Program-made: the position numbers and the translations under genes
Shown: piece by piece, positions 20,561 to 37,346 of the stretch
Position numbering within the stretch: position 1 is the first letter of the stretch
How the letters are laid out: each line of letters begins with the position of its first letter
NCBI GenBank assembly: GCA_025057415.1
Contig: JANWXI010000002.1
Coordinates: 3,497 to 67,496 of the forward strand
Direction: 5' to 3'
From: Chitinophagales bacterium
Lineage (GTDB): Bacteria; Bacteroidota; Bacteroidia; Chitinophagales; LD1
DNA: 64,000 bases
Notes under the pieces: generated by a model
Databases searched by the model: none
Seen by the model: only the letters and a program-made list of their open reading frames with translations
Told to the model about the DNA's origin: nothing

Positions 20561-21331
20561 ATGTTGCCCGAAAGAGTGTCCGGACTTTCTGTTAAGGAAT
20601 TTTATACCTCATATTTACAAAAGTCCATACCGGTAATAATTACCGATGTAGTGACCGGTTGGCATTCCTATCGGGAATGGAGTATAGATTCATTTGCCAA
20701 AAAATATGGTCATAAAGCGGCCGGAGTAATGCGCATTAAAAACGGATTATCTGACGCAGATACCTACAACGAGCGCAATTCGGCATTGGTGCCTGTACAA
20801 CGGATTATTGAGTCGGTCAGCAAAGGGCTACACGGTGCAGACATTGTGTTGGCATCTCCCATTGATGCGTTGAAACCGGAGATAGATTACGATGTAGCAG
20901 TGCCGGAGTATTGTCGCCACGGAAAATTTTTTCGCAGCCGCATTTATGTGGGGCCAGGCGGTTTAGTAACCTCCCTGCATCAGGACCTGCCCGAAAATTT
21001 TTATGCCCTCATCAGGGGGCGTAAACACATTACGCTGTTTAAGCCCGCTGACCGAAAATACCTGTATCCAAACCCGGTGTGGAGCCGCCACCCCAATTTT
21101 GCGCGTTACAATCCCGATAAACCCGATAATATTGCTTTTCAGAGGGCGCGCTTTGCGCAACCTGTGGAGGTTTATCTGCAGGAGGGAGAAATGTTGTATA
21201 TCCCCTCATTGTGGTGGCACCACATCCGTAATCTGGAACCATCCATAGCGGTGAACTTTTGGTGGAGCGTGGGGTGGAAGGTAGTACCGGCCTGGGGATT
21301 GGCAAAGTTAAAGCAAATACTCAATGGCTGA
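20561..21331 (+). CDS. JmjC/cupin_8-type Fe(II)/2OG oxygenase
   Basis: FYTSYLQKSIPVIITDV...W...FAKKYG N-terminus. HxD in SLHQDLP. Distal His in LYIPSLWWHHIRN. Confidence 0.75.
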   Translation: MLPERVSGLSVKEFYTSYLQKSIPVIITDVVTGWHSYREWSIDSFAKKYGHKAAGVMRIKNGLSDADTYNERNSALVPVQRIIESVSKGLHGADIVLASPIDALKPEIDYDVAVPEYCRHGKFFRSRIYVGPGGLVTSLHQDLPENFYALIRGRKHITLFKPADRKYLYPNPVWSRHPNFARYNPDKPDNIAFQRARFAQPVEVYLQEGEMLYIPSLWWHHIRNLEPSIAVNFWWSVGWKVVPAWGLAKLKQILNG

Positions 21332-22481
21332 TGGGGATGTGGGTCGTATAAAGCGGGTACATCAGCGAGTCGTGCAACCAATATTGTTGTTTTTTGAAAA
21401 GTTCGAGCTTTAAAATGGCGGGTGTTTTTTTGTTTGTAGGTTTAATTTTTTCTGAATGGTTGAATGCTTTACCCGGTTGAAAGAAAGCACCCCCTTCAAC
21501 ACCGCCCAATTTGTTTTTATTGTAGTAATCGTACATTAAAGAGTCAAACTCAGCTTTGCGATTAAAGCGAATAAGGTAAGAGGTTATCGCTGTGGAATCA
21601 TTCGCAAGCGCCGTGCATTGAAGCAGTAGCTCTGTACATTGAGCTGTTACATGAGGCATTTCAAAAGAGGATGTAAGGCGCAGGGTAGCATGAGATACAT
21701 CATAAGTTGCAATCATGTTTTTAAATATCCCGTTATAAAGGTGGTGTGTCAACGCGGGCGGGTCTTTGTACCAAATGTAACGGTGTGGTTGTTTTTGGTT
21801 CGTCAAAGTGTGGCATGTGTTGCAACGGCGGAAATTATAGTTGCTGCCATAAAACTTGTAAGCGCTCTTGGCGGCATCTGTATGACAAGGCAAACAGGTA
21901 ATGTCAGTTTTAGCGAATAGTTCTGAGTATTTTGGATTACAAGGAGCAGAGTAAAAAGTACTCGTATATTTTTTATTGCTGCTCATTACACCCTGACCAT
22001 CAAAGTGGCAACTCAAGCAATCTACGCCGGTAGTTTTGTCTTTGTCTGTTTTTTTCCACGGGATGGGCTGATGGGGATAGTCCTTTTGCATCAACCACCC
22101 TAAGAGAGAGTCCGTGGCATGATGATGCTGAAACACACTTTGAAACATATTATCAGGAGCATGGCAACGCATACATTCTGTTTCGGAATTTTTCAATACG
22201 TGATTTTCATAAAAACTGCACTCGTACTTCGGCTGGCTTACATATTGTACGTGCTCCTGAATAGAGTAATAGGCGTGAGCGTGAGGGCCATTTAATTCCT
22301 GTTCGTAAATCTCCTGATGACATTTGCCACATTCCTTGTTTTGCTCTGAGCGGGTTAATTTGAAAAACTCTTCATTAAACATCGTGTCAATACGGTTACG
22401 ACATCTACTTATGGATAAAAACATGGCTACCGTGTATGAGAATGTTAACATAAACAACAAAAGATTTCGCACAGGGAGCAT
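21321..22481 (-). CDS. Membrane-anchored pentaheme c-type cytochrome
   Basis: N-terminal hydrophobic helix. Five CxxCH motifs read directly: CGKCH, CMRCH, CLSCH, CLPCH, CNTCH. Confidence 0.75.
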   Translation of the reverse strand: MLPVRNLLLFMLTFSYTVAMFLSISRCRNRIDTMFNEEFFKLTRSEQNKECGKCHQEIYEQELNGPHAHAYYSIQEHVQYVSQPKYECSFYENHVLKNSETECMRCHAPDNMFQSVFQHHHATDSLLGWLMQKDYPHQPIPWKKTDKDKTTGVDCLSCHFDGQGVMSSNKKYTSTFYSAPCNPKYSELFAKTDITCLPCHTDAAKSAYKFYGSNYNFRRCNTCHTLTNQKQPHRYIWYKDPPALTHHLYNGIFKNMIATYDVSHATLRLTSSFEMPHVTAQCTELLLQCTALANDSTAITSYLIRFNRKAEFDSLMYDYYNKNKLGGVEGGAFFQPGKAFNHSEKIKPTNKKTPAILKLELFKKQQYWLHDSLMYPLYTTHIPISH

Positions 22482-22512
22482 GTATATCGGGTTTTGGCGC
22501 CTGAATAATATT

Positions 22513-23934
22513 TCAGTTATTACTTCTGCAAAATTGTATGAATTTTTCCAGCAATTTAGTGAAAATACTCTTGCGGTATTTTACGGAGAGCAGTTTTTTA
22601 AAAAAAATTTCTTCGTTTTGCGGTATTTGCAGAAGCCCGCATTTCAGCCACTCTCTGTAAACGGATGAGTATAACCATACAAACCCGAATAGTTCCAGCT
22701 TAGTCCAAAAAGATAGATTTTTTTGCGGGAAAATACGTTTTGCCAACGATGCTGGTGAGTAAAATTGCCTGATAAAGTATTTTGCTCCCTCCATGATCAG
22801 TTCTTCATTTACACCATGGGGCAGGTAGCTGAGGTGAATACCATCGTATAGCGAATAATCATTACCTATATATGTACCTTTTTTAGCCATGTATTGGTGA
22901 GCTTTTGAGCCGGGGTTGTAAGTGAGGAATGTTAATTTTACGTAGAGCAATTTGTTGCGCTGGAAAAACGCCAAAGTATTTCGGAAAGTATCTAACGTTG
23001 TGTTCTCCAGTCCCAGTATAAAACCCGCGCCAATCTGAATGCCGTATGATTGCGTTTTACGGATTATCCGTTCATAGTTATCAATAATGTTAGTGTGCAT
23101 TTTATGTATGGAGCGCAATGCACTATCATCAATGGTTTCCAGACCGCAGTAAATGATTTTGCAATTGCTTTCGCGTAATGCATATAGTATCTCATCATCA
23201 TCCAGAAATTCAATACACATTTCAGCCATCCAGCCCGCAACGCGGTTTTTGCGCAGAAGCGATGCCACACGCAGCACATGCTCTTTACTTACTCCGAAAT
23301 TATAATCTATAATATTCACAAAACGTCCCGTGTAGTACTTTAGCTCACTATCCAACATACCATAATCTTTTAGGGCGTACGGTTTTTGCTGCATGATGTG
23401 TACCATGCAAAAAGAGCACTTTTCGGTGCAGCCGCGCGAAGTTTCCAATGGCATACCCATCACAGAACTGTATGCGTGGTAGTTATGCAATAATTCCCAT
23501 TTGGGGCTATTGAATACATGTAATACATCTCTGCCCGAACTATAAATCTTTTTTAGGTTGCCTGCTTGCCAATCTGTCATAAATTCGCTGGCGATATTTT
23601 CTATGAGACCACATATTGTGATATCTGCATGTTTACTGGCTTCCATGGGTAACATTGTAGGAAACTCACCGCCCCAAAGTACTTTGGCGTTAGGGTTGTA
23701 TCTACGAACTTTATGGGTGATTGCTACAGCAAAGCGGTAATTCTGTGCGGATACTTTAATGCCAACGCAAGCGTAATTTTCCCATGATATTTTGTCATCG
23801 TCTTCCAGATTAAGGTCAATAATCTCCGGTTCAAATATTTTTTCTAAACAAGATGCAACTACATAAAGCGAAAGTGACAGAATACCTTTGGGGTAAACCG
23901 GTAGGTCAATCAGCAGTAGTGGAGGTTTGTTCAT
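22513..23934 (-). CDS. B12-binding-domain radical SAM enzyme
   Basis: N-terminal Rossmann-like region (LLLIDLP...VGIKVSAQN...VLWGGEFPT). Motif SRGCTEKCSFC. Confidence 0.8.
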   Translation of the reverse strand: MNKPPLLLIDLPVYPKGILSLSLYVVASCLEKIFEPEIIDLNLEDDDKISWENYACVGIKVSAQNYRFAVAITHKVRRYNPNAKVLWGGEFPTMLPMEASKHADITICGLIENIASEFMTDWQAGNLKKIYSSGRDVLHVFNSPKWELLHNYHAYSSVMGMPLETSRGCTEKCSFCMVHIMQQKPYALKDYGMLDSELKYYTGRFVNIIDYNFGVSKEHVLRVASLLRKNRVAGWMAEMCIEFLDDDEILYALRESNCKIIYCGLETIDDSALRSIHKMHTNIIDNYERIIRKTQSYGIQIGAGFILGLENTTLDTFRNTLAFFQRNKLLYVKLTFLTYNPGSKAHQYMAKKGTYIGNDYSLYDGIHLSYLPHGVNEELIMEGAKYFIRQFYSPASLAKRIFPQKNLSFWTKLELFGFVWLYSSVYREWLKCGLLQIPQNEEIFFKKLLSVKYRKSIFTKLLEKFIQFCRSNN

Positions 23935-23955: not shown

Positions 23956-25497
23956 TTAACGAACCTGTTCGGCCGTAATCACTTTTGTTTTGGTTCGTTT
24001 GAGTAATTCTGCCAGCGCCCACTCAGCCCTTGATTCAAACCTGCGCAGGAGTAAGTTGCGCATGGTTCGTATTAGTCGCACCGGGCGAAAAAGATAATTG
24101 GTGAAGTAAAATACAAACAGATATACCAACGCATAGATGCGTAAAAGCGAAGGGTTTACCTTCTCATTATAGAAATGTATATTCCACAACGAGTCGGCCT
24201 GAATTATCTTCATAAAATACTCATCGTCTTCAATATTGATTTTTCCTTCGTCCACGAGGCGCTGAAACAGCGCACTACCGGGGTAAGGAGTAAAAATAGC
24301 GGGAGCCATGTCATTTACCCCTGCCCAGCTTGCCCTGATTAAAAACCAGATAGATTGCCATATATGACGGTGCCCTTCATCCGGAAAACCAATCATGAAG
24401 TTGATTTTAATGTTCATCTTTTCTTCACTGGAGTGGCGTATGGATTGCAGCATGCGGTCGAGTGAAACCTTCTTTTTAATGGTTTGCAGTATTTCCGGGC
24501 TGCCACTTTCGGGAGCATACGTGATATTACGACAACCCGAGCGATAAAGCCAGTAAGCCACTTCGCGGTCAATGGCCTCGCTACGCGTGCCGGCCGGTAT
24601 TTGCCAAACGATGTCTAAACGCCGTTGAACAATTTCTTTTGCAAATTCTATAATCCATCTTTTATTTATGACAGCGGTTAAATCGTAAAAGTCAAAATTA
24701 CACACACCGTATTTTCCCACATATAGTTCTATTTCATCAGCTACATCTGAAGCCGGCCGCATACTGTATTTGGTGCCCCACATCTGCGGACTACTACAAA
24801 ACGTACATTCATAAGGACAACCCCGTGTAGCCATCAAAGGCAATGCAAAGGAATTTTGAAGTTCTACACCAAAACTGATGCCATGCGATGTGTATTTTTG
24901 AAAAGGGAATATATCCCAATATGGCCGGGGGATTTGTGCTACTTCACGAATTCTTTTTCTTGGGGCAGTTCTTTGAGGTTGAGAATATTCATTTCTAAAA
25001 ACAATGCCGGGGACATTCTCTAAGGGAGAATTTTCAGCAAGGGCTTTTACCAGGTCTATTACAGTTTCTTCGCCTTCACCTAATACACAAGCAGTTAAGC
25101 ACTGTGTTTGCCTGATACAAAACTCCGGTACCGCAGTGGCATGCTCTCCGCCGGCAATGATGGGGACACCGGGAAAAGCATTCCCGATTTCATCAATCAG
25201 TTCCCTTTGATGTAACCAGTTGATACTGAACATCATGGTAATGCCGATTAGCTCAGTATCCGGGTGAATTAGCTGAATTATCTGACGTGACAACAGACCG
25301 TGAATAACTATGTCTTTTCTGCCTTTAAAAGCCACATACTGGTCGGGAGCTTCAGCAATGGCATCTATTATGTACACATCGTGCCCATCCGCCTTAAGGG
25401 CGCCGGCAATGTATGCTAATCCCAATGGTGGTGAGGGGCGCATGGATGCGCTCATAAGTTTCATCAGCCGTGACGGGTTTATCAAACAAACCTTCAT
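23956..25497 (-). CDS. B12-binding-domain radical SAM enzyme, family A paralog 1 (513 aa)
   Basis: MKVCLINPSRLMK...PPLGLAYIAGAL...IDAIAEAP...AGGEHAT...VLGEGEET. Motif ATRGCPYECTFCSSPQMWG. Block QIPAGTRSEAI. Aligns end to end with the ORFs at 41558, 44327 and 49317. Confidence 0.85.
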   Translation of the reverse strand: MKVCLINPSRLMKLMSASMRPSPPLGLAYIAGALKADGHDVYIIDAIAEAPDQYVAFKGRKDIVIHGLLSRQIIQLIHPDTELIGITMMFSINWLHQRELIDEIGNAFPGVPIIAGGEHATAVPEFCIRQTQCLTACVLGEGEETVIDLVKALAENSPLENVPGIVFRNEYSQPQRTAPRKRIREVAQIPRPYWDIFPFQKYTSHGISFGVELQNSFALPLMATRGCPYECTFCSSPQMWGTKYSMRPASDVADEIELYVGKYGVCNFDFYDLTAVINKRWIIEFAKEIVQRRLDIVWQIPAGTRSEAIDREVAYWLYRSGCRNITYAPESGSPEILQTIKKKVSLDRMLQSIRHSSEEKMNIKINFMIGFPDEGHRHIWQSIWFLIRASWAGVNDMAPAIFTPYPGSALFQRLVDEGKINIEDDEYFMKIIQADSLWNIHFYNEKVNPSLLRIYALVYLFVFYFTNYLFRPVRLIRTMRNLLLRRFESRAEWALAELLKRTKTKVITAEQVR

Positions 25498-25513: not shown

Positions 25514-26248
25514 TTAGTTTCCACGAATTTTCAAATATATATAAAGTAAACAAGCCGCCGGTAATGCCATCGCTTTTCGTATTCCGATGGGGGTTTTTTC
25601 GTATATACCTAAACGGCTAAGCAGATAGCGCATGGCTTCTATGCCTAAGCATCGGGCGCACACCCATGTGCGCAGGTGAGCAAATTCTGGTCTGATAATA
25701 TCAAACACCAGCACATAGCGGTATTCGTCCGTATTGTTCCATGCCTCATGCTGATAGGCATCGTTAAATGCAAATACTTTTCCCTCCTCCCACTCAAGCA
25801 AGGTGTCTTTCACACGCATCCCAATTTCGGGGAGTTTGCCCGGTACCTTTAAACCCAGATGACAACGGATGATAGCATTGGTTTCACCACAGTGCATTTT
25901 GAGGCGGCTCTTTGGCGCTAAAGTGGTGATGCCGGCCAACGTAATATGCGGGTGGGCGTCTATTATCGCGGAGGTTTTGGGAAAATACTTTGGTCCTAAA
26001 GGGTAACGTAACAGGTAGTTTTTAAAATAAATATTTTTCCAGCTATCGGGGTAGGTCATCTCCGGAGCGCTGGGATTGCGGTACGGAATGTCAAACTTTC
26101 GATGGATGTAATCATGCACCTCATCCTTGATGATTTGATAATGTTTTAAAACGTGTTGTATAGCCGGATATGCCGCCGGTTCATAAACCGTCGGTTCACT
26201 TTCTTCATGCAACGCATAATCACTGTATAAATAGACAACTCTTGACAT
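25514..26248 (-). CDS. Aspartyl/asparaginyl beta-hydroxylase (LpxO/AspH-like) family oxygenase
   Basis: HCGETNAIIRCHLGLKVP block, AYQHEAWN distal His and a hydrophobic C-terminal tail (ALPAACLLYIYL). Confidence 0.8.
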   Translation of the reverse strand: MSRVVYLYSDYALHEESEPTVYEPAAYPAIQHVLKHYQIIKDEVHDYIHRKFDIPYRNPSAPEMTYPDSWKNIYFKNYLLRYPLGPKYFPKTSAIIDAHPHITLAGITTLAPKSRLKMHCGETNAIIRCHLGLKVPGKLPEIGMRVKDTLLEWEEGKVFAFNDAYQHEAWNNTDEYRYVLVFDIIRPEFAHLRTWVCARCLGIEAMRYLLSRLGIYEKTPIGIRKAMALPAACLLYIYLKIRGN

Positions 26249-27277
26249 TTAACTAAAGCCACTATCGGGCGTGTAAAATAACACATTTCTCTCTTTAAAT
26301 AAAACGATAACACCTGCTGTTACCTGTGGTATAAAGTATGATAAGTGTAGATAAATCGTATAAGCGGCCGCCTCAGAAGTTAACTCAACATTAACCGGTA
26401 AAGATTTAAACGAAGCGATTTGCAATAGTACATAATAAATACCGCCATGTACTACCCCGGCACTGCCGGGGGCGGCAGGAATCAGAAATACAATAATCAT
26501 CGAAACTGAGACCATATAAGCCACATCCCAACTACGCATCGCTGCCGGTAAAGAAGTCATTTGAAGAAGCAGGTAGTATTGTAATATATTAATGATAAAA
26601 ATTATGAGACCTATCACAAAATAACGAAGGTATTGGTCAAGTGTCATACTTTTCAGATAGAGTTTTAGTTGTTCATGCAGTGAAAAAAGCCACATGCCCT
26701 TGTTTTCGAAAAGAGACAAGAAACGCAGCATAATGCGCTCTGTTTGCCGATGATGTATTATTAACAGATATAGTATGAAAATAAACAGTACAATAATTGT
26801 TACAGGCATGAAAAGCCGTCTGTAAACAGCCAATGAACCAAATATCAAACCAAGTATAGCCGCATACAAAATATAGTTTAAGGCATCAATATATTTCTCA
26901 AGCCCAACCAACGACAGACCATGTTTATATGAAATTTTATTCTTTTTACTAAAATGCCATGCACGAATCAATTCGCCTATGTTGCCGGGTAATAAGCTAT
27001 TGTAAAGCAACCCGAGTAACAAGGACTTTATGCTATCTGTGGTTTTAACCACCTTTAATCCTTCTGTGGGGATGATGAACCTTTTGGCTTGAAGGCATAT
27101 CACCAAAATTAAAAGCAATACAGTGGTAAAGAATAAGATTGCTTCGGTTTTTCCAATTCTCAAGTCGCTCCAACGCAGGTTGCTGTCTGATATTGTATAT
27201 ATGAGCAATACGATACTCGCCAGCGTGAATATGGCGGCCTTAATTTTTTGTGTGCGCTGCAGCCAACTGATAGACAT
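26249..27277 (-). CDS. Flippase-like membrane protein (lysyl-PG synthase TM-region / UPF0104 family)
   Basis: About 8 hydrophobic helices. The LLPGNIGELIRAWHFSK motif is characteristic of the family as I recall it. Confidence 0.55.
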   Translation of the reverse strand: MSISWLQRTQKIKAAIFTLASIVLLIYTISDSNLRWSDLRIGKTEAILFFTTVLLLILVICLQAKRFIIPTEGLKVVKTTDSIKSLLLGLLYNSLLPGNIGELIRAWHFSKKNKISYKHGLSLVGLEKYIDALNYILYAAILGLIFGSLAVYRRLFMPVTIIVLFIFILYLLIIHHRQTERIMLRFLSLFENKGMWLFSLHEQLKLYLKSMTLDQYLRYFVIGLIIFIINILQYYLLLQMTSLPAAMRSWDVAYMVSVSMIIVFLIPAAPGSAGVVHGGIYYVLLQIASFKSLPVNVELTSEAAAYTIYLHLSYFIPQVTAGVIVLFKERNVLFYTPDSGFS

Positions 27278-28932
27278 TATATTTTATATGCTTTAACCCG
27301 ATATATATCAGCTTCACAAAAGTGTATGTCCGAAACTTTTGTGAAATCTAATTTAACTTTGTACAAGTGCAGGAAATAGAAACTAATCAGTTGAATTCTA
27401 TCTTTGGTAATATATGCAAGAACACCTTCTTTGGAGTTAGTCAACAACTCTGTGTGCTTGCGAAAATCACCGGGATGGTATCCAAAAAGTTTTGTGAATC
27501 TTTCTACACAATAACTGTAGTAAGTCAGATAACCCCCATCGAATGTTGCAAAGTTTTGATAGAGAGTTTCAGGGGTCCGGTAAAACGGATCGTTTGTTAA
27601 CGGTATTTCGGCATTAGAAAAAAAAAGTGTGCGTTCACCGGTAGTTTGTTTTACAAGGTCTTTGGAGTTTTTTAAAAACGCCTCATGTACCTGCGATAGT
27701 TGTACGTGAAGCGGATGATAATATATTACTTGTCTGACCCCGAAAATAGCAATGGCTATTAGAACAAGTATAGGTAAACTAATACGTACAAATTTTGGTA
27801 AAGGCCTCTCTTCGAAAACTACTAAATATTTTAGAAGTAACAACCAGCTTAATATTCCTATATAAGAATTAAAAAAGCGCTCTTTGAGTTCATTGGTCAA
27901 TAATAAAATCAGCCCTGCGGGTACCAGAAACATCACCCATGTAAATAGCAATGATTCCTTTGCATGACCTGGCGAGGTACACACAAATAAGCACAACAAA
28001 ATAACAATCGAAATCAAAAGATAGGACGTGTCTCTCCATCGTTTAGAGATATCCTGTTTGATAGCCGATATATTGTAAGGGTCGAACACAAACGACAATG
28101 TGGGTTGTATGCGAACAAACTGATGGAAATATTCACGTGTATATTGAGCCGTATCGGTGAAAAAGAATGACTTTAAGCCAAGATACCTAGCTGTATCTGC
28201 ACTTTTACTTGCCGATGTTAAAGGTGCAATATGCGGTTTTTCCAGTATTGGATACTCAAAATGTGCTTCAATATACCTGCCCATATTACTTGTGAACTTA
28301 CCATTTAACTGATACAATCCCAGCAGCATCAGCGTAAAGGCAAACATTACTTTGTATTTACCGAATGTATATCCCAGCGGTTTTCTGAGTACATCATATG
28401 CGATAAATGCAAAAAGTATTAGGGCTGCGGCATGAATTCTGGTTATAACTGCAAAAAAAAACAATAAAAGCGGTGTGGCGCGTAACCTGTTATTGTTATC
28501 ATACTCCAAACTGTGCAGATAGAGAGCAGCAAACGACAGCAACACACTCTGTCTGATACAATGCAACTGAAATAATGAATCATAAAGAAATACACACGCA
28601 GCGACCACCAGAATCATAATATACATAACCTTATTCGCAAAGGTTCGTATGGCTATCACGGTAATAGCCCAGAAAACCGTAAACTGTGTTAATAACTTAA
28701 AAATGCCAAAAACAGGGATAGTTGGCAGATTTTTGCTTAGATGAAATAAGGGTGGAAATAGGAATACAAGAGAGTCAGACCAGTATTGTTCATTCCCCAT
28801 TTCACCTAATACTCCATAATTTATAGCCGCCACAATAGTTTCATTATCCTCCAGGTAGATACCTGAAATTGTGAATAATAGTACAACTGTAAAGGATACA
28901 AGGGCAGACCACAAGCCGGTTGACAGTTTCAA
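27277..28932 (-). CDS. Polytopic membrane protein with soluble C-terminal domain (unknown family; paralog of 46737..48440)
   Basis: 551 aa with many hydrophobic helices, a central loop and a ~150-aa C-terminal domain. The C-terminal ITKDRIQLISFYFLHLYKVKLDFTKV aligns by eye with VSTAQRVQLINLLTTEFYQMRLLFTAV of the 567-aa protein. Confidence 0.5.
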   Translation of the reverse strand: MKLSTGLWSALVSFTVVLLFTISGIYLEDNETIVAAINYGVLGEMGNEQYWSDSLVFLFPPLFHLSKNLPTIPVFGIFKLLTQFTVFWAITVIAIRTFANKVMYIMILVVAACVFLYDSLFQLHCIRQSVLLSFAALYLHSLEYDNNNRLRATPLLLFFFAVITRIHAAALILFAFIAYDVLRKPLGYTFGKYKVMFAFTLMLLGLYQLNGKFTSNMGRYIEAHFEYPILEKPHIAPLTSASKSADTARYLGLKSFFFTDTAQYTREYFHQFVRIQPTLSFVFDPYNISAIKQDISKRWRDTSYLLISIVILLCLFVCTSPGHAKESLLFTWVMFLVPAGLILLLTNELKERFFNSYIGILSWLLLLKYLVVFEERPLPKFVRISLPILVLIAIAIFGVRQVIYYHPLHVQLSQVHEAFLKNSKDLVKQTTGERTLFFSNAEIPLTNDPFYRTPETLYQNFATFDGGYLTYYSYCVERFTKLFGYHPGDFRKHTELLTNSKEGVLAYITKDRIQLISFYFLHLYKVKLDFTKVSDIHFCEADIYRVKAYKI

Positions 28933-29020
28933 TAGAGTATATTTTGCAAACGAATATAGACAAAGCTATTTTATATCACTCGTAAGTATTTTTAATTTTA
29001 TGCCGTAATAAGAGAGCAAG

Positions 29021-29857
29021 ATGCAAAAAATTGATAATGCCATCATACACCCTTACGAATGGCCCGAAGGAGAGGAAATAATATATGTACGTCCGCCGGT
29101 GGAGGAATACCATGGCAAACTCCATAACTTTTATAGCACCGAAAGTTTTCCCGAGCTAAAACCTTTATTAGATAATTGGGAAAAAATCAGGGATGAGGTA
29201 TTGGCTGTAGAGGCGCGGGATGGTCTCTTGACAAAGCAAAACTCCCTTTCTCCTGCCAAAGTGGAGGGTGAGGGCAGTTGGAGTTTAACTTATCTGGTAA
29301 GTTTTAACTGGCTTTTTCACGAAAATATTAAGCGTTTTCCTGTAACCTGGAGCATTGTACAACAGATCCCGAACTGCGTATTTGCCGGTATAAGTATTTT
29401 GCCGCCTAAAACAGAAATCAAGCCACATTATGGCGATACAAACGGGATTGTGCGTGCTCATCTGGCTTTGGTAGTACCGGAGCCATATCCCACTATCGGG
29501 ATTCATGTGAATGGGGAAGAGCGCGGCTGGAAAGTGGGCGAAATAATGGCTTTCATCAATGTACAGAAACATCACGTGTGGAACCACAGCGACAAAAGAA
29601 GGTATGTGCTGATGTTTGATTTTGTACCCAAACCTCTGTTACCTCGCCTGAATGAGATTTGTACTAACGCGCTGGGGAATCAGAGCTTCGTATTTTTTTA
29701 CAGGCGCAGCGCAATTGTACGCAAAATGCCCGACTGGATGCATCGGCTAATGATTAAAATTTTTGCATTTATCTGGAAATGCTATTTACCCGTTCAGCGG
29801 CGGTTTAGTTGGGCCACCATTAAATCAGGTGATGTTCAGGATGTTCGCTATCGATGA
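29021..29857 (+). CDS. Aspartyl/asparaginyl beta-hydroxylase (LpxO/AspH-like) family oxygenase
   Basis: HYGDTNGIVRAHLALVVP, VQKHHVWN and a hydrophobic C-terminal segment (MIKIFAFIWKCYLP). Confidence 0.8.
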   Translation: MQKIDNAIIHPYEWPEGEEIIYVRPPVEEYHGKLHNFYSTESFPELKPLLDNWEKIRDEVLAVEARDGLLTKQNSLSPAKVEGEGSWSLTYLVSFNWLFHENIKRFPVTWSIVQQIPNCVFAGISILPPKTEIKPHYGDTNGIVRAHLALVVPEPYPTIGIHVNGEERGWKVGEIMAFINVQKHHVWNHSDKRRYVLMFDFVPKPLLPRLNEICTNALGNQSFVFFYRRSAIVRKMPDWMHRLMIKIFAFIWKCYLPVQRRFSWATIKSGDVQDVRYR

Positions 29858-30820
29858 TATTGGTTTTTGAAATAATAAATTGAATTCCAGCATAGGACCC
29901 ACGATACATTCTGTACACGGAGTTTTGCAGTTGAAAGATTTTTCCCAGTCATCCTCCAGAAGGTTTATACCGGGGGTTTTCCCTTTTGTATAAGCGCAAG
30001 GGTATGCGGTACCGGAGGCATCTATAAAGATATATCCTCTGCCGGCAGCACATCGGCTGCCAGTCACGTAGCGGGCGCTTTGCCGGTAATCTTTCCAGGA
30101 TATGATGTATTGAAGGTATGACTCGGAGCTGGCAATGGGAGCTCCTGATTGCTTTTGTTTAAGGATGTATTTCCAAAAGCGGCGGGCTTTTTCTTGCGGG
30201 AAATCCTCTTTGGCAGAACGCATCACTATTTCTGTATCGAAACATTCGGGTTGGAAATGCACGGTGAAGCGCTCTTCACGCGCTAATGCCAGCAGATATT
30301 CAGCATCTTCTGTTTCAAAATCGGTAATCACACAAATTGCGGTAAGAGGTTTACCTTGCCCGCGTATATCGCGTATAGCGGTGAGGACCTTCTCGTAGTC
30401 CTGCTTTCCACGATTTTTGATATGTCTGTCAGGAGGACCATCTAAACTAGTGAAAAAGTAATCGGCATCACGGAGTGTATCGGCATGCTTTTCGTATAAC
30501 AATAAATTACTGTTAACCGATACAAAGAAACCCTTCCTTTTAGCCATGCTTAAAATTTCAGGAAAATCCCTTCTGTATAGCGGTTCTCCGCCCAGTAATC
30601 CCAGGCGAATAACCCCCATTCGTTTTAATTTTGTAAATACGGTTTCAATTTGCTCAAGTGTCATTTCCGGCTCTTTGAGCAAGGGGAAATTACAGTAGGC
30701 ACAACGAATATTACAGCGATTCGTGACCACCATAGAAGCGCTGAATGGGCGGGGGGATGCACCCGACCTAATAGCTGCTAAACTTAACACATAACTCAGT
30801 ATCAACCGATGTTGTATCAC
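29825..30820 (-). CDS. Radical SAM enzyme with C-terminal Cys-rich SPASM/twitch-like domain
   Basis: VTNRCNIRCAYCNF cluster motif. C-terminal CAAGRGYIFIDASGTAYPCAY...CKTPCTEC. GTG start overlaps the upstream stop codon (GTGA). Confidence 0.75.
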   Translation of the reverse strand: MIQHRLILSYVLSLAAIRSGASPRPFSASMVVTNRCNIRCAYCNFPLLKEPEMTLEQIETVFTKLKRMGVIRLGLLGGEPLYRRDFPEILSMAKRKGFFVSVNSNLLLYEKHADTLRDADYFFTSLDGPPDRHIKNRGKQDYEKVLTAIRDIRGQGKPLTAICVITDFETEDAEYLLALAREERFTVHFQPECFDTEIVMRSAKEDFPQEKARRFWKYILKQKQSGAPIASSESYLQYIISWKDYRQSARYVTGSRCAAGRGYIFIDASGTAYPCAYTKGKTPGINLLEDDWEKSFNCKTPCTECIVGPMLEFNLLFQKPISSIANILNIT

Positions 30821-31986
30821 TTTATCGTTATTATTTTTTTTTCTTTCAGATAATTTACTACGTTGTTTGCCACAAATTTGCCTTTTATTGAGTCACCGGT
30901 TTCGTCTAAATGGCAATCGTCAATCCAATGTTTAGAAGGTATATCAGTATAGTTGTAATTGATGATGCCTACATTATACTTCATAGCTAATTTTTTTAGT
31001 GCATTGTTTAAGCCATCCAAGTTCTTAATATAATATGGTCGCTTGATACATTCTTCAGATAATTTGTTTACGGCAAAAGTCATCAGCATTATGTGTGATG
31101 AATCATAAAGCGCTTCTCTTATCAACGTAGAAATATTAGTTATTGCAGGAGATTTCATATAATCATTTGAAATTTCTTTTCGTACTATGTCAGGATACCA
31201 GTTACAAAAATAATAGTTGGTATTACTCATATTAGGCTGATCATGGTTTAATTTCTTCAATAAATCGTAACGTATTACCAAATAACTTATGAAATATGAC
31301 CTAAAAAAAATACGAGGGATAGGATATCTATAAACTAAATATGTCTCCGTTAGTCGGAAATTAACTTCATCAGGTGTATAGGAGAAAGAGTTGTTAAAAT
31401 CTATTTCAGCATCGTTACCGACAGAATGTAAGATAATTAAATTGGGTTTATAATATCTGAATTTGTGAAGATAAGCATTTAATTCATCACAAGATCTGCC
31501 GCCTTCTAAACCGGCATTAATCCCTTCAAAACCATTAAAATCTTTCATTTGAATCATGCCAGAATCTAAAAGTTGATTCAGAAATTTTATTGTTTGGGCA
31601 GGATATGTTTTATTAGGATTTAACACGCCACTTGAATATGTAGTAGATCCTCCTAAAAATAATATTCGATACTTATTGCCATGTAACATATTTACTTTCT
31701 CCCCTCTATATCCGTCTGAATTGTGTTGTAGAAAGTTACTTATCTGATAATTTGGAGTGGGCATAAAATTTAAATTAACAGCACCTACATATCTGGGTAA
31801 TACATTTTTAGATCCCTTCAATACCTCTCTTAGACGAAGAATTCTATCGGGGAATATATCCCTAAGATTGTCTGATTTATTTAAGTTGTGCAGTGCGAGG
31901 TAACCGATGCATTCCACAATAAATGACGTAACAATTAATATGACAGCAACGAATATACTATAGTATAATTTTTGTTTCATAAACAT
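30817..31986 (-). CDS. Membrane-anchored SGNH/GDSL-like hydrolase or acyltransferase
   Basis: N-terminal TM helix. Block I ILFLGGSTTYS, block III HSVGNDA, block V DDCHLDETG. Confidence 0.6.
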   Translation of the reverse strand: MFMKQKLYYSIFVAVILIVTSFIVECIGYLALHNLNKSDNLRDIFPDRILRLREVLKGSKNVLPRYVGAVNLNFMPTPNYQISNFLQHNSDGYRGEKVNMLHGNKYRILFLGGSTTYSSGVLNPNKTYPAQTIKFLNQLLDSGMIQMKDFNGFEGINAGLEGGRSCDELNAYLHKFRYYKPNLIILHSVGNDAEIDFNNSFSYTPDEVNFRLTETYLVYRYPIPRIFFRSYFISYLVIRYDLLKKLNHDQPNMSNTNYYFCNWYPDIVRKEISNDYMKSPAITNISTLIREALYDSSHIMLMTFAVNKLSEECIKRPYYIKNLDGLNNALKKLAMKYNVGIINYNYTDIPSKHWIDDCHLDETGDSIKGKFVANNVVNYLKEKKIITIK

Positions 31987-32785
31987 GGATTAATATATAT
32001 ATCCATGAAATTAAGAAATATATTCTCCAAATATACCATTTGATTAAAATATTTTGATTAGAAAAGCCAATACTTATTGGTATTAAAATCATAAATGCCA
32101 TTAATAAACTACGGCTACTTAGCCATACTGAATAACCTGTACATAAACCTAATGTATTTTTCATGTATAATGTAAATTTTCTCAGTTTGACTGCTGATGT
32201 ATTCACGTTGGTTATTCGATCAATTTCAATGTCATGCTCTATCTGATGTATGTGTGCTATGGAAGTCATGAGTCCTGATATTACACAAAGAGAAAGGTTT
32301 ACTCTAGGAGCTAAAACAGTTAACAATCCTCCCCAAATACCTACGATAATAATGTCTAATACCGGTAATGATTTAAAAAATGATGAGTAGGCGAAATTTA
32401 CTATATATAAAAGAAATAGTCCCCACGATTGCTTGTATTTCCAAAATAACAACCCATATGTTATTGATAAAATTGTTAAGAAGATAATTACTATCAGAAA
32501 AATCTGTTGATTATTGTTTATTTCTTCCACAAACGGTTGAAATTTTTTTGGGTTAAGGCGGTCGTTATAACGATCGGCATAATCGTTATAACCGTACAAG
32601 GCACATAACGTCAGAATGCTGTGCAAACCGGTGGCGATTGCCCACATAACATCATGGGTAGAGAAGTATGCGTGTAACACATTGAAAATCCAAATACCTC
32701 CTTCGCCCAGCTTCCAGCGCAGCCACAGCGGATAAAAAGCAAAACGCAGGAGCTGGGATAAATTGATGTTTGTACCGGTACGCAA
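31958..32785 (-). CDS. UbiA-family prenyltransferase / polyprenyl-phosphate transferase
   Basis: Polytopic 275-aa protein. First Asp-rich motif NDYADRYND (NDxxDxxxD) and second motif DIEID (DxxxD). Confidence 0.6.
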   Translation of the reverse strand: MRTGTNINLSQLLRFAFYPLWLRWKLGEGGIWIFNVLHAYFSTHDVMWAIATGLHSILTLCALYGYNDYADRYNDRLNPKKFQPFVEEINNNQQIFLIVIIFLTILSITYGLLFWKYKQSWGLFLLYIVNFAYSSFFKSLPVLDIIIVGIWGGLLTVLAPRVNLSLCVISGLMTSIAHIHQIEHDIEIDRITNVNTSAVKLRKFTLYMKNTLGLCTGYSVWLSSRSLLMAFMILIPISIGFSNQNILIKWYIWRIYFLISWIYILIHVYETKIIL

Positions 32786-32806
32786 GCGTTACAATTTAAT
32801 TTAATT

Positions 32807-34198
32807 TTAGCAAAAATACTTGTGGATGTAATACCTAACCCCCCTGATTATTACAGAGGCGTTTGCGGCATCGGCAGTTTGTGCAAAACGCTCGTCTCCG
32901 TAAAAACACACGATAGCCAACCATGCAATGGATATAATCGATAAAATCGCCCATGAGCTTAAGATGTTTTTTTTAGAAAAAAATACAGGTATAAAAAAGA
33001 GTGCTACGTATAGTAAAAGCGATTTAGCGCTGAAAGCGTTCAATACTTTAGCAATCATTAAACGGAAAAATAACCATGGGTGTTCCCGGTAGAAGTGAAG
33101 CAATTTGCAATGTTTATTCATTTCTTTCGGCAGTTGATTAAAAAAAGAAGTTTTGATAATTCGCCACTCGGGGTGAAAATCCCCATCGGTACAGAATTCA
33201 TTGTGCACATTCAAAATGTTGTATTCGCCCAGTTGGTTAGTGATAAGGATGAAGTCATTTTCGCGCGCATGCTGATACTGATGAAACTTCAGAATGTCTT
33301 CTATAACATCCTCACGTATTTTACCTTGACGATTAAAAATCTCCCGATGATGCTGAAGCATCAGGCGGGGAGATGTTGCCTCCAATCTATTACTGAAGCG
33401 CAACCGGTTTGGAATGTCTTTTTGTATGACTGAATTTATAAACACTATCCATGGGAGCCAAATTACCAACACACCCATCAAGTAGTATAATATATACTTT
33501 CCGAAAGTAATCGTCCTGAGCTTTTTCAAGCCATAAATGTACCCTGCAGCAATGAATACCACAACAGGCAAAAAGTAACCTTTCGATAACAGCAAAAGAG
33601 CGGTAACAACTCCTGCCAAAACATGAAAAAACGCCTTGCGGTACTTGGCGGCTATAACTAACAATAAACAAGTACAACCAACCAGGCAGGCAGTCAGTAA
33701 TTCTGCATCATAATTGAATATTTCCCCATTCCGCAACAAATACACTACTGTTGCCGCGATGATTGAAAACATCCACCCGCCATTCATCAAATAAACGCTA
33801 GCTGCCACTGAAAAACACAATACCATCAAACACAACACATTGAATTGTACGGCAGTTTGCGGTTTAAATCCAAACCAACTATACGTCATGCCGATTAGCA
33901 GTGAATACAGGGGGGGTTTACTGGAGAAAAACATCGTACCGGCATAGTATGTGTCGCGGTAATATTTCACACTGTCGGGATGAGCGCAAAGTTTGTAATC
34001 GTTTATATGACTTAAAAAACCATATACGGGGAAGCGATGATGCAGAGCCAAATTTGCCGCAGGAAGATGGTACTCAAAAAAGTCGGGGTTGAAACCATTC
34101 GGAGAAAAATACTCCGATGTTGCTGTTTTATTGCATATAAATATACACATGCAAAGCCATGCTAATCCTGCCACAAAAATTAGTCGTTTAATTACCAT
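32807..34198 (-). CDS. GT-C fold glycosyltransferase (ArnT/PMT, GT39/GT83-like)
   Basis: 463-aa polytopic protein. SKPPLYSLLIGMTYSWFG resembles the conserved first-loop motif of ArnT/PMT_2-type enzymes. Confidence 0.55.
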   Translation of the reverse strand: MVIKRLIFVAGLAWLCMCIFICNKTATSEYFSPNGFNPDFFEYHLPAANLALHHRFPVYGFLSHINDYKLCAHPDSVKYYRDTYYAGTMFFSSKPPLYSLLIGMTYSWFGFKPQTAVQFNVLCLMVLCFSVAASVYLMNGGWMFSIIAATVVYLLRNGEIFNYDAELLTACLVGCTCLLLVIAAKYRKAFFHVLAGVVTALLLLSKGYFLPVVVFIAAGYIYGLKKLRTITFGKYILYYLMGVLVIWLPWIVFINSVIQKDIPNRLRFSNRLEATSPRLMLQHHREIFNRQGKIREDVIEDILKFHQYQHARENDFILITNQLGEYNILNVHNEFCTDGDFHPEWRIIKTSFFNQLPKEMNKHCKLLHFYREHPWLFFRLMIAKVLNAFSAKSLLLYVALFFIPVFFSKKNILSSWAILSIISIAWLAIVCFYGDERFAQTADAANASVIIRGVRYYIHKYFC

Positions 34199-34270
34199 TA
34201 CACTGGTACTCAGCGTTTCAGATTTTACAATAAGAATTTACATTGAACAGAACCCTAAATTAAAATAAAA

Positions 34271-36500: not shown

Positions 36501-36542
36501 AATGTATATCAGTTAGGGTTATATGCGATTATATTCAATTTA

Positions 36543-37316: not shown

Positions 37317-37346
37317 AGCTATATATTCAGTAACTTCATAATATGT

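What the first reader, a model, noticed from the sequence alone, without database searches (positions are those of the whole stretch)
21321..22481. Pentaheme c-type cytochrome inside a radical-SAM/oxygenase operon
Five CxxCH motifs and an N-terminal anchor are read directly from the ORF. It is the last gene of the long minus-strand operon that carries three B12-rSAM genes directly upstream (38599, 23956, 22513). Multiheme cytochromes are normally respiratory or periplasmic electron carriers, and association with biosynthetic rSAM enzymes is not something I know as established. It might feed electrons across the membrane to a periplasmic modification step, or couple O2-labile rSAM chemistry and O2-dependent 2OG chemistry to redox state.
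Basis: partly seen in the sequence, partly recalled or inferred. Interest (0 to 1): 0.6.

Follow-up and report, generated by a model that had tools for sequence, protein, structure and literature searches.

The report
Five-heme cytochrome paired with B12 radical-SAM enzyme
The gene encodes a real exported five-heme cytochrome from a small undescribed family that is almost always encoded next to, or fused through one membrane helix to, one particular vitamin-B12 radical enzyme; this pairing has not been described and its chemistry is unknown.

Summary
ORF 21321-22481(-) has five CxxCH motifs after a hydrophobic N-terminus ending in Cys27. All five motifs, plus H67 and H277, are invariant in 57 relatives that share only 19-37% identity with it.

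An AlphaFold model (pLDDT 91) shows a helical five-heme cap and an Ig-like beta-sandwich. The closest solved structure is Thermochromatium tepidum penta-heme cytochrome c552. The sulfur reductase MccSep matches by sequence profile and is described with the same two-part build, but its active-site signature is absent here.

The link is to one radical-SAM gene only, the 473-aa class-B enzyme at 22513-23934:
- Its orthologue is adjacent or fused in 23 of 25 informative loci.
- Presence and absence agree in 460 of 461 Bacteroidota genomes.
- The two proteins co-diverge (Mantel r = 0.90).
- In three proteins they are one polypeptide joined by a single hydrophobic helix, which places the radical-SAM part in the cytoplasm and the hemes in the periplasm.

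The pair also occurs without the large oxygenase cluster. The genome's only other multiheme protein is ACIII ActA, so this is not a general respiratory carrier.

Function is inferred. A dedicated maturase (about 0.35) is slightly favoured over two steps on a shared membrane substrate (about 0.30). Electron transfer across the membrane is unlikely. I found no published precedent.

The parts
21321..22481 (-). Pentaheme c-type cytochrome gene, 386 aa plus stop
   Evidence: The family profile finds 92 representative clusters at E<1e-10 among 1.84 billion representatives.
22401..22481 (-). Export signal, residues 1-27: a hydrophobic segment ending in Cys27. Probably a lipoprotein signal, or otherwise a signal anchor.
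   Evidence: Kyte-Doolittle peak 1.93 at residues 7-25. Cys27 aligns with a lipobox-type Cys in 37 of 57 relatives; the others have SPI-like signals. The -1 residue (Arg) is atypical, so cleavage is an inference.
21717..22400 (-). Helical five-heme cap, residues 28-255. CxxCH at 22317-22331, 22161-22175, 22005-22019, 21882-21896 and 21810-21824. Conserved candidate distal ligands are H67, H77 and H233; C181 is also conserved.
   Evidence: AlphaFold2 model, pLDDT 91.3 and pTM 0.85. All five motifs and H67 are invariant; H233 is kept in 55/57, H77 in 46/57 and C181 in 47/57.
21324..21716 (-). C-terminal Ig-like beta-sandwich, residues 256-386. H277 is invariant. C282 is kept in 35/57. A conserved polar patch comprises R305, N307, K309, K364, Q366, Y367, W368 and D371.
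   Evidence: Secondary structure of the model. Foldseek top hit is 5ze8, E 2.7e-11, TM 0.51. No Pfam family matches this part even at E 10. Conservation.
22482..22512 (-). 31-nt spacer between the radical-SAM gene and the cytochrome gene
   Evidence: The orthologous spacers measure -11 to +38 nt in 12 loci. Promoter-like and terminator-like sites in the region are no more frequent than in shuffled sequence.
22513..23934 (-). Cognate class-B (cobalamin-binding) radical-SAM enzyme, 473 aa. It has the CxxxCxxC motif C169/C173/C176 and no transmembrane segment.
   Evidence: Pfam Radical_SAM 48.6 bits and B12-binding 30.2 bits. AlphaFold2 pLDDT 86.8. Foldseek top hits are CysS, AprD4, TsrM, OxsB, TokK and MgmA. 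Orthologues (38-50% identity) flank or are fused to the cytochrome elsewhere.
20561..21331 (+). Convergent Cupin_8/JmjC-type oxygenase gene that overlaps the cytochrome's 3' end by 11 nt. It is a recurrent but not universal neighbour.
   Evidence: Pfam Cupin_8, 1.2e-44. The same convergent arrangement occurs in L001, L028 and L033. A JmjC_2 gene sits convergent to the fusion in L041.

Best explanation
Shown. The ORF encodes an exported pentaheme c-type cytochrome with a five-heme helical cap and an Ig-like beta-sandwich. It belongs to a small undescribed family. That family forms an obligate module with one class-B (cobalamin) radical-SAM subfamily, represented here by the gene at 22513-23934. 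In some bacteria the two are a single polypeptide joined by one transmembrane helix. That arrangement places the radical-SAM half in the cytoplasm and the heme half in the periplasm.

Inferred mechanism, to which I commit. The radical-SAM enzyme is a dedicated cytoplasmic maturase for this cytochrome. It would alter a residue of the unfolded precursor, or the heme destined for it, before Sec export and heme attachment. This is the way anaerobic sulfatase-maturing enzymes act on exported sulfatases. The finished cytochrome would then work in the periplasm as a redox enzyme or electron donor for envelope-tailoring steps. It would not be part of the respiratory chain.
For: Pairing:
- The rsam473 orthologue is directly adjacent in all 12 same-genus genomes that carry it.
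- It is also adjacent in L001, L003, L033, L036 (reversed order), L037, L038, L042 and L044.
- Three fusions (P0064, P0069, P0093) are single ORFs in the DNA. Each has exactly one hydrophobic segment, at the junction.
- Across 461 Bacteroidota genomes, 12 have both genes, 1 has the cytochrome only, 0 have the radical-SAM only and 448 have neither.
- The two proteins co-diverge: Mantel r = 0.90, with 0 of 5000 permutations as high, and the trees are congruent.

Self-sufficiency:
- The pair stands alone, or among unrelated neighbours, in L003, L031 and L044. No third gene is conserved.

Hints of protein or cofactor tailoring nearby:
- A peripheral family member (L043) has a SPASM radical-SAM directly upstream instead.
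- L037 adds a SPASM/PqqD-like radical-SAM.
- L036 has a MauG-like di-heme enzyme.
- JmjC-type hydroxylases recur.

Not respiratory:
- The genome's only other multiheme protein is ACIII ActA.

Precedents, from general knowledge:
- anSME acts on sulfatases before export.
- The class-B radical-SAM enzymes Mmp10 and MgmA methylate protein residues; MgmA is Foldseek hit 13.
Against: - No modification has been observed, and no target residue could be named.
- An enzyme fused to its own substrate is unusual. Fusion across a membrane fits two sequential enzymes at least as well.
- In most same-genus loci the pair is embedded in large envelope-tailoring clusters containing PhyH, WelO5, GT-C-like and Wzt-like genes. 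That favours a pathway role.
- One 90%-complete MAG (G405, locus L028) has an intact cytochrome and no detectable rsam473 orthologue.
- No dedicated heme-attachment genes accompany the pair.
Confidence: 0.35

Rival explanations
1. Two sequential enzymes on one membrane-bound substrate. The radical-SAM enzyme alkylates or rearranges a lipid-linked or polyprenyl-linked intermediate (or a quinone) at the cytoplasmic face. After flipping, the cytochrome oxidises or reduces the same molecule at the periplasmic face, using the Ig-like domain as the binding site.
For: - Fusion of a cytoplasmic and a periplasmic catalytic domain through one helix is typical of envelope biosynthesis.
- Neighbours are often membrane enzymes that act outside the cytoplasm: PMT_2 GT-C in the same operon in L038, MBOAT in L037, GT-C-like ~570-600-aa proteins in five genus loci, and Wzt-like ABC ATPases.
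- The window cluster carries UbiA, LPG_synthase_TM and SGNH genes.
- The conserved polar patch on the beta-sandwich suggests a specific ligand.
- The beta-sandwich shows weak Foldseek resemblance to the lipid-binding proteins NPC2 and GM2 activator (low TM-scores).
Against: - No other pathway gene is conserved with the pair, and the pair occurs alone (L003, L031, L044).
- To my knowledge no multiheme cytochrome is known to act on an organic envelope intermediate.
- In Bacteroidota the cytochrome looks like a cleaved lipoprotein, so co-localisation with the radical-SAM enzyme is not enforced.
Confidence: 0.3
2. A self-contained small-molecule system. The cytochrome is a periplasmic reductase or oxidase for an inorganic species such as a sulfur or selenium compound or a peroxide, as MccSep is. 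The B12 radical-SAM enzyme processes the product, for example by methylating it in the cytoplasm.
For: - The family profile matches MccSep at E 7e-9, and the fold matches T. tepidum c552.
- MccSep reduces polysulfide and selenite at a heme/Ig-domain interface (bioRxiv 10.1101/2025.11.18.688581).
- Only four conserved His are available as distal ligands for five hemes, and conserved Cys are present (C181 in 47/57, C282 in 35/57).
- The pair occurs alone.
Against: - The heme-ligating Cys of MccSep lies between heme motifs 4 and 5; no Cys is present there in this family.
- C282 is replaced by Gly or Ala in many members.
- NF040886 scores 22.9 bits against a cut-off of 250.
- Class-B radical-SAM enzymes are known to act on carbon or phosphorus centres of organic substrates.
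Confidence: 0.1
3. Transmembrane electron relay. The periplasmic hemes deliver electrons to, or remove them from, the cytoplasmic radical-SAM cluster or cobalamin, or link it to the periplasmic redox state.
For: - The pairing and the fusions keep the two redox proteins together at the membrane.
- Class-B radical-SAM methylases consume two electrons per turnover (general knowledge).
Against: - The only membrane element is one helix with no conserved His or other cofactor ligand. A bilayer is too thick for direct electron tunnelling (general knowledge).
- In most members the signal looks cleavable, of lipobox or SPI type, so no physical bridge would remain.
- Cytoplasmic flavodoxin or ferredoxin normally reduces radical-SAM clusters.
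Confidence: 0.07
4. An ordinary respiratory or periplasmic electron carrier that lies next to radical-SAM genes by accident of gene order.
For: There are weak Pfam and NCBIfam matches to c554, NrfB, NapC/NirT, NrfH and DmsE.
Against: - Adjacency or fusion with one specific radical-SAM subfamily occurs in 23 of 25 informative loci across divergent lineages.
- Presence/absence profiles match, and the two proteins co-diverge.
- All matches to respiratory families are far below their cut-offs, except a marginal c554 domain hit of 23.6 bits against a cut-off of 20.8.
- The organism has no multiheme network apart from ACIII.
Confidence: 0.03

Closest known systems
Thermochromatium tepidum low-potential penta-heme cytochrome c552 (PDB 5ZE8; Chen et al. 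2019, Photosynth Res 139:281, cited from PMC11976967)
   Same: It is almost the same length, 385 residues in the structure against 386 here. It has five CxxCH hemes in a helical N-terminal part and a C-terminal beta-sandwich. It is the best Foldseek hit (E 2.7e-11, TM 0.51 normalised either way). The profile alignment shares the CxxCH...H...W...PH pattern, so H233 and H277 have counterparts. Its function is also unassigned (PMC11976967).
   Different: Sequence identity is only 14%. The sequence match is confined to short heme segments (E 3.1e-10 for the profile). I know of no radical-SAM partner reported for it. It comes from a purple sulfur phototroph and has been suggested to act in sulfur metabolism.
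MccSep / ExtKL multiheme selenoprotein polysulfide reductase of Geobacter (PDB 9WT8/9WT9; bioRxiv 10.1101/2025.11.18.688581) and the 'PHC' pentaheme family of cable bacteria (PMC11976967)
   Same: It has a mushroom-shaped architecture: a five-heme alpha-helical cap and an Ig-like beta-sandwich stem that contributes residues to a heme pocket. The profile matches it at E 7e-9 across all five heme motifs.
   Different: MccSep's defining residues are absent or not conserved here. The heme-2 ligand C239 lies between heme motifs 4 and 5, and this family has no Cys there. A Cys in the beta-sandwich (C282) is present in only 35 of 57 members, and its equivalence to U325 is untested. NF040886 scores 22.9 bits against a cut-off of 250. 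The MccSep paper does not mention radical SAM.
Anaerobic sulfatase-maturing enzyme (anSME) with its exported sulfatase, a maturase-and-target gene pair (general knowledge)
   Same: A cytoplasmic radical-SAM enzyme is encoded next to a Sec-exported protein. It must act on the unfolded precursor before export. The model proposed here works like this.
   Different: anSME is a SPASM-domain enzyme, not a cobalamin class-B one. Its target and chemistry (Cys/Ser to formylglycine) are known, and I know of no fusion to the target. No modification has been shown here.
Class-B cobalamin radical-SAM enzymes with solved structures: CysS, AprD4, TsrM, OxsB, TokK, MgmA
   Same: The partner protein has the same three-part fold of an N-terminal Rossmann B12 domain, a radical-SAM barrel and a helical C-terminal domain. 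Foldseek gives E 1e-14 to 5e-17 and TM-scores (query-normalised) of 0.56-0.66. The CxxxCxxC motif is invariant.
   Different: Identity to these structures is 12-16%. No NCBIfam equivalog is reached; the best is HpnJ at 69.5 bits against a cut-off of 578. None of these enzymes is known to be paired with a cytochrome.

Membership tests
c-type multiheme cytochromes (general) | CxxCH heme-attachment motifs conserved in orthologues | tested here: met
   The five motifs are invariant in 57 sequences that share 19-37% identity with the query. In three of these sequences one site fits a CxxxCH/CxxxxCH spacing.
c-type multiheme cytochromes (general) | Export to the periplasmic side, and a heme-attachment system in the genome | tested here: met
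   An N-terminal hydrophobic signal is present in nearly all members: lipobox Cys in 37/57, SPI-like in the others. A CcsA-type PF01578 gene is present in the genome at C170, 88.4 bits and over the cut-off.
c-type multiheme cytochromes (general) | Covalently bound heme in the protein | not testable with these tools
   This needs heme staining, a pyridine hemochrome assay or mass spectrometry of expressed protein.
PHC-type pentaheme cytochromes (T. tepidum c552 / MccSep fold) | Five-heme helical cap plus C-terminal Ig-like beta-sandwich | tested here: met
   AlphaFold2 pLDDT 91.3. Helices span residues 30-255 and strands 256-386. Foldseek top hit is 5ze8, E 2.7e-11, probability 1.00, TM 0.51.
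MccSep / ExtKL family (NF040886) | Score above the curated NCBIfam cut-off | tested here: not met
   22.9 bits against a cut-off of 250.
MccSep / ExtKL family (NF040886) | Strictly conserved heme-ligating Cys between heme motifs 4 and 5 (C239 of MccSep) | tested here: not met
   The window protein has no Cys between H200 and C220. In the profile alignment the MccSep Cys-Cys lies in that interval.
MccSep / ExtKL family (NF040886) | Catalytic Sec/Cys in the Ig-like domain (U325) | tested here: inconclusive
   C282 sits in the beta-sandwich, five residues after invariant H277, but is present in only 35 of 57 members.
Cytochrome c554 (PF13435) | Pfam gathering score reached, and the tetraheme c554 architecture | tested here: inconclusive
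   The score is 23.6 bits against a cut-off of 20.8, but only residues 50-120 match. PDB 1bvb matches two short stretches. The protein has five hemes and an extra beta-sandwich, so it is at most a distant relative.
NapC/NirT/NrfH membrane quinol dehydrogenases | Family score over the cut-off | tested here: not met
   PF03264 scores 17.1 bits against 24.1. TIGR03153 NrfH scores 22.1 against 134.2.
MtrA/DmsE decaheme and NrfB families | Family score over the cut-off | tested here: not met
   TIGR03508 scores 23.6 bits against 192.2. PF22678 NrfB-like scores 20.9 against 27.
Class-B cobalamin-dependent radical SAM (the partner gene, 22513-23934) | CxxxCxxC cluster motif, N-terminal B12-binding Rossmann domain and class-B fold | tested here: met
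   C169, C173 and C176 are invariant. Radical_SAM scores 48.6 bits. B12-binding scores 30.2 bits, just under the 32.1 cut-off for this copy, but is called in most orthologues. Foldseek top hits are all class-B enzymes. Cobalamin binding itself was not tested.
Radical-SAM maturase plus exported target pairs (anSME-like logic) | Strict co-occurrence and adjacency of enzyme and target | tested here: met
   23 of 25 informative loci. Genome tally: 12 both, 1 cytochrome only, 0 radical-SAM only, 448 neither.
Radical-SAM maturase plus exported target pairs (anSME-like logic) | A covalent modification of the target that depends on the enzyme | not testable with these tools
   This needs co-expression and mass spectrometry.

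The most novel reading that the evidence does not exclude
A class-B cobalamin radical-SAM enzyme is the dedicated maturase of a c-type cytochrome. It would install an unprecedented modification, such as C-methylation of an active-site residue or an altered heme, that creates a new kind of periplasmic multiheme enzyme. In some lineages the two are tethered as a single membrane-spanning polypeptide. This would be the first radical-SAM step in cytochrome c maturation, and a new catalytic multiheme family.
Probability: 0.3. Interest if true: 0.85.

Novelty: new variant of a known kind. Interest (0 to 1): 0.64.

Why it matters
Multiheme cytochromes and cobalamin radical-SAM enzymes are both heavily studied. 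Three full-text searches found no paper describing an obligate pairing or fusion of the two.

The pair defines two uncharacterised families that can now be tested together. The cytochrome family has about 90 representative clusters. The radical-SAM family has at least 152 clusters.

If the radical-SAM enzyme tailors the cytochrome or its heme, that adds a new step to cytochrome c biogenesis. If the two act in sequence on an envelope molecule, that would be the first organic-substrate role for a pentaheme cytochrome.

Either way, the natural fusions give a ready-made construct for biochemistry. They also give a firm topology for any model: radical-SAM inside, hemes outside.

Tried and rejected
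- **Known respiratory families.** I tested membership of c554, NrfB, NapC/NirT, NrfH, DmsE/MtrA and ExtKL. All scores were below the curated cut-offs, apart from a marginal partial c554 domain hit.
- **Word-index protein search.** It found only 4-5 cytochrome relatives. The exhaustive representative search was needed.
- **The search for related loci.** With alignment A1 the search returned only three Chitinophagales or Bacteroidetes loci, so the taxonomy of the distant members remains unknown.
- **A conserved third gene.** The small ORFs downstream of two fusions are unrelated to each other. The L041 JmjC_2 protein gave no BLASTP hit at E <= 1e-3 to the window's Cupin_8. No neighbour is universal.
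- **Promoter and terminator scan.** Sites around the pair were no more frequent than in shuffled sequence, so co-transcription rests only on the 31-nt spacing.
- **C-terminal domain alone against Pfam at E 10.** Nothing matched.
- **Literature.** Three full-text searches found no paper on a B12 radical-SAM and multiheme cytochrome pairing.
- **Transmembrane electron relay.** I consider it unlikely because of the single cofactor-less helix and the cleavable signals.
- **Model geometry.** I could not place the conserved residues relative to the heme sites because model coordinates are not exposed.
Full report
**Observation**

The minus-strand ORF 21321-22481 encodes 386 residues. It carries exactly five CxxCH motifs, at residues 51-55, 103-107, 155-159, 196-200 and 220-224. 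I mapped these to window coordinates and verified them by translation.

Residues 7-25 form the only strongly hydrophobic segment (Kyte-Doolittle 1.93), and Cys27 follows. A six-frame scan of the whole 3.2-Mb assembly finds only two ORFs with three or more CxxCH motifs. One is this ORF. The other heads an Alternative Complex III operon with ActB-like, NrfD-like and monoheme genes. A CcsA-type heme-attachment gene is present in the genome.

**Gene order**

The radical-SAM gene at 22513-23934 ends 31 nt upstream of the cytochrome. The next radical-SAM gene, at 23956-25497, is 21 nt further on.

A plus-strand Cupin_8/JmjC gene (20561-21331) converges on the cytochrome and overlaps it by 11 nt. Promoter-like and terminator-like sites occur at chance frequency. 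Co-transcription with the adjacent radical-SAM gene is therefore inferred from spacing alone.

**The cytochrome family**

- **Size.** A word-indexed search of 5.8 billion proteins found only four relatives. An exhaustive profile search of 1.84 billion representatives found 109 at E<1e-3 and 92 at E<1e-10. Most are 370-400 residues long and match end to end.
- **Conservation.** I aligned 57 members that share 19-37% identity with the query. All five CxxCH motifs, H67, D154 and H277 are invariant. H233 is kept in 55/57, H77 in 46/57, C181 in 47/57 and C282 in 35/57. A polar set in the C-terminal part (R305, N307, K309, K364, Q366, Y367, W368, D371) is also highly conserved.
- **Export.** Nearly every member starts with an export signal. 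It is lipobox-like in 37 of 57 and signal-peptidase-I-like in others.
- **Family assignment.** Pfam and NCBIfam give only weak, partial matches to c554, c7, NrfB, NapC/NirT, NrfH, DmsE and ExtKL. All are below their cut-offs except a marginal c554 hit of 23.6 bits against 20.8 over residues 50-120. The C-terminal 137 residues match no Pfam family at all.

**Fold**

AlphaFold2 with the 57-sequence alignment gives a confident model (pLDDT 91.3, pTM 0.85). It has a helical region up to about residue 255 and a beta-sandwich from 256 to 386.

The only strong Foldseek match in the PDB is 5ZE8, the penta-heme cytochrome c552 of Thermochromatium tepidum (E 2.7e-11, TM 0.51, 385 residues).

The family profile also matches UndA, c554, OmcA, 5ZE8 and the new multiheme selenoprotein MccSep (E 7e-9) by sequence. 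MccSep is described as a five-heme alpha-helical cap on an Ig-like stem. Its heme 2 is ligated by C239, and a selenocysteine from the Ig domain completes a polysulfide-reducing site (bioRxiv 10.1101/2025.11.18.688581). A cable-bacteria study groups ExtKL, T. tepidum c552 and related proteins as a pentaheme 'PHC' family, and notes that c552 has no assigned function (PMC11976967).

The window protein shares this architecture, and the PH motif that supplies H277 has counterparts in 5ZE8 and UndA. It lacks the MccSep signature: no Cys lies between heme motifs 4 and 5, and the NCBIfam score is 22.9 against a cut-off of 250. It is therefore a remote structural relative of the PHC fold and not a member of MccSep.

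Four conserved non-motif histidines for five hemes, together with the conserved beta-sandwich patch, suggest one heme with an open or unusual sixth position. That would mean an enzyme and not a simple wire. I could not inspect model coordinates to confirm this.

**The partner**

In every locus where the upstream DNA is available, the neighbouring gene is an orthologue of the 473-aa radical-SAM protein. It shares 38-50% identity with that protein, against about 20-25% with the six other B12 radical-SAM paralogues in the window.

The loci are as follows:

| Loci | Arrangement |
|---|---|
| 12 genomes of the same GTDB genus | radical-SAM directly upstream; spacers -11 to +38 nt across 12 loci |
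| L033 (71%-identical Chitinophagales MAG) | same order as the window |
| L001 | radical-SAM then cytochrome, inside the same kind of large cluster |
| L003, L004, L005 (soil metagenome) | the pair alone (in L005 only the end of the upstream gene lies on the contig) |
| L037, L038, L042, L044 | radical-SAM then cytochrome |
| L036 | reversed order: MauG-like, then cytochrome, then radical-SAM |

Three representative proteins (P0064, 901 aa; P0069, 853 aa; P0093, 825 aa) are fusions of the radical-SAM orthologue and the cytochrome. They are confirmed as single ORFs in the DNA. Each has exactly one hydrophobic segment, and it lies at the junction. The stand-alone radical-SAM protein has none.

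Across 461 Bacteroidota genomes, 12 carry both genes and one carries the cytochrome only. That one is G405, a 90%-complete MAG in which the gene lies 753 nt from a contig end. None carries the radical-SAM alone, and 448 carry neither.

Pairwise identities of the two proteins correlate across 17 pairs (Mantel r = 0.90; 0 of 5000 permutations as high). The two trees share their supported clades. The fusions need at least two changes on the best trees, but a single origin is not excluded.

There is one clear exception in partner identity. The peripheral member P0063 (L043) has a SPASM radical-SAM directly upstream and an unrelated B12 radical-SAM on the other strand.

The partner's model (pLDDT 86.8) has the class-B cobalamin radical-SAM fold. 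Its best structural matches are CysS, AprD4, TsrM, OxsB, TokK and MgmA. It reaches no NCBIfam equivalog. At least 152 clusters of close homologues exist, and all carry only generic names.

**Context**

In the window and most same-genus loci the pair sits inside large clusters. These are rich in PhyH, WelO5-like, AspH/LpxO-like and JmjC oxygenases, further B12 radical-SAM genes, Wzt-like ABC ATPases and unannotated ~550-600-aa membrane proteins. Earlier notes of this scan read those membrane proteins as GT-C-like glycosyltransferases in a surface-sugar cluster. I did not test that reading.

Elsewhere the neighbours differ: PMT_2 GT-C (L038), MBOAT plus a SPASM/PqqD-like radical-SAM (L037), a MauG-like di-heme enzyme (L036), P450 (L025) and JmjC_2 (L041). 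In L003, L031 and L044 nothing related is nearby. Only the radical-SAM enzyme is constant.

**Mechanism**

These points are shown:
- The cytochrome is exported.
- The radical-SAM protein is soluble and cytoplasmic.
- The two are an obligate, co-inherited and sometimes fused module.
- The organism has no multiheme respiratory network beyond ACIII.

The rest is inference.

A direct electron path across the membrane is unlikely. The only membrane element is a single helix with no conserved ligand, and most signals look cleavable.

Two models remain close.

- **Dedicated maturase, about 0.35.** I slightly favour this model, which works like anSME and its sulfatase. The pair is self-sufficient in very different neighbourhoods. 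Protein- or cofactor-tailoring enzymes recur beside it: SPASM and PqqD-like radical-SAMs, MauG-like enzymes and JmjC hydroxylases. Class-B radical-SAM enzymes are also known to methylate proteins.
- **Two sequential steps on a membrane-bound substrate, about 0.30.** The fusions and the envelope-biosynthesis neighbours favour this model.

A small-molecule redox-plus-methylation system is possible (about 0.10). A fortuitous respiratory carrier is very unlikely (about 0.03).

**Novelty**

Three full-text searches found no paper that links cobalamin radical-SAM enzymes with multiheme cytochromes in this way. Other notes of this scan report BchE-like B12 radical-SAM genes beside cytochrome-maturation genes in other phyla. 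The subfamily here is different and has no CcsBA neighbour, but the theme is similar. Those notes are leads and not evidence.

I rate this a new variant of known kinds: a PHC-fold cytochrome and a class-B radical-SAM enzyme in a combination that has not been described.

Noticed in passing
window 20561-21331 (+); also L001 11043-11777, L028 1987-2754, L033 2796-3578, L041 7453-8067: A JmjC-type cupin gene (Cupin_8, or JmjC_2 in L041) converges on the 3' end of the cytochrome gene and usually overlaps it. This is seen in five loci, including one radical-SAM/cytochrome fusion from a different lineage. The L041 protein gave no BLASTP hit at E <= 1e-3 to the window's Cupin_8, so this could be convergence or deep divergence.
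   Followed up: partly
P0084 / L039 191-2320; L032 6533-8425; L003 1-605: One family member is fused at its C-terminus to an FGE-sulfatase (formylglycine-generating enzyme-like) domain, and a second FGE-like gene lies next to it. Sulfatase genes lie near two other loci. This may link the family to periplasmic oxidative protein maturation.
   Followed up: no
L036 2242-5899: In a distant member the gene order is MauG-like di-heme enzyme (626 aa), then cytochrome, then B12 radical-SAM, with overlapping start and stop codons. The MauG-like protein scores 236 bits on TIGR03791, below the cut-off. The radical-SAM lies downstream here, not upstream.
   Followed up: partly
L043 2304-6146: The peripheral family member P0063 has a SPASM radical-SAM directly upstream and an unrelated B12 radical-SAM on the opposite strand. 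It has no rsam473 orthologue.
   Followed up: partly
L021-L027 (same-genus genomes G402, G434, G407, G409, G422, G433): The loci around the pair hold arrays of up to about eight PhyH-type and WelO5-like Fe(II)/2OG oxygenase genes. They also hold Wzt-like ABC ATPases, an arylsulfotransferase-like gene and unannotated 550-600-aa membrane proteins. This is an unusually oxygenase-dense cluster of unknown product.
   Followed up: partly
window 1-22000 versus 26000-38000: G+C falls from about 0.47-0.50 to 0.37-0.40 inside the cluster. The cytochrome and radical-SAM pair sits at the transition (0.40-0.46), which suggests a mosaic origin for the cluster.
   Followed up: no
window 22513-23934 (-), protein residues about 405-435: The partner radical-SAM has a conserved aromatic and hydrophobic C-terminal helix, roughly LELFxFxxxYxxxYxxWL, that is retained in all orthologues and in the fusions. 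It is not hydrophobic enough to be a transmembrane helix (Kyte-Doolittle maximum 1.34). It may be a membrane-surface or partner-binding element.
   Followed up: partly
G000 contig C174:1074-8504 (L040): An Alternative Complex III operon lies here, with a six-CxxCH ActA-like gene, a 1033-aa molybdopterin/FeS ActB-like gene, an NrfD-like gene and a monoheme cytochrome gene. It holds the only other multiheme cytochrome in this genome.
   Followed up: yes
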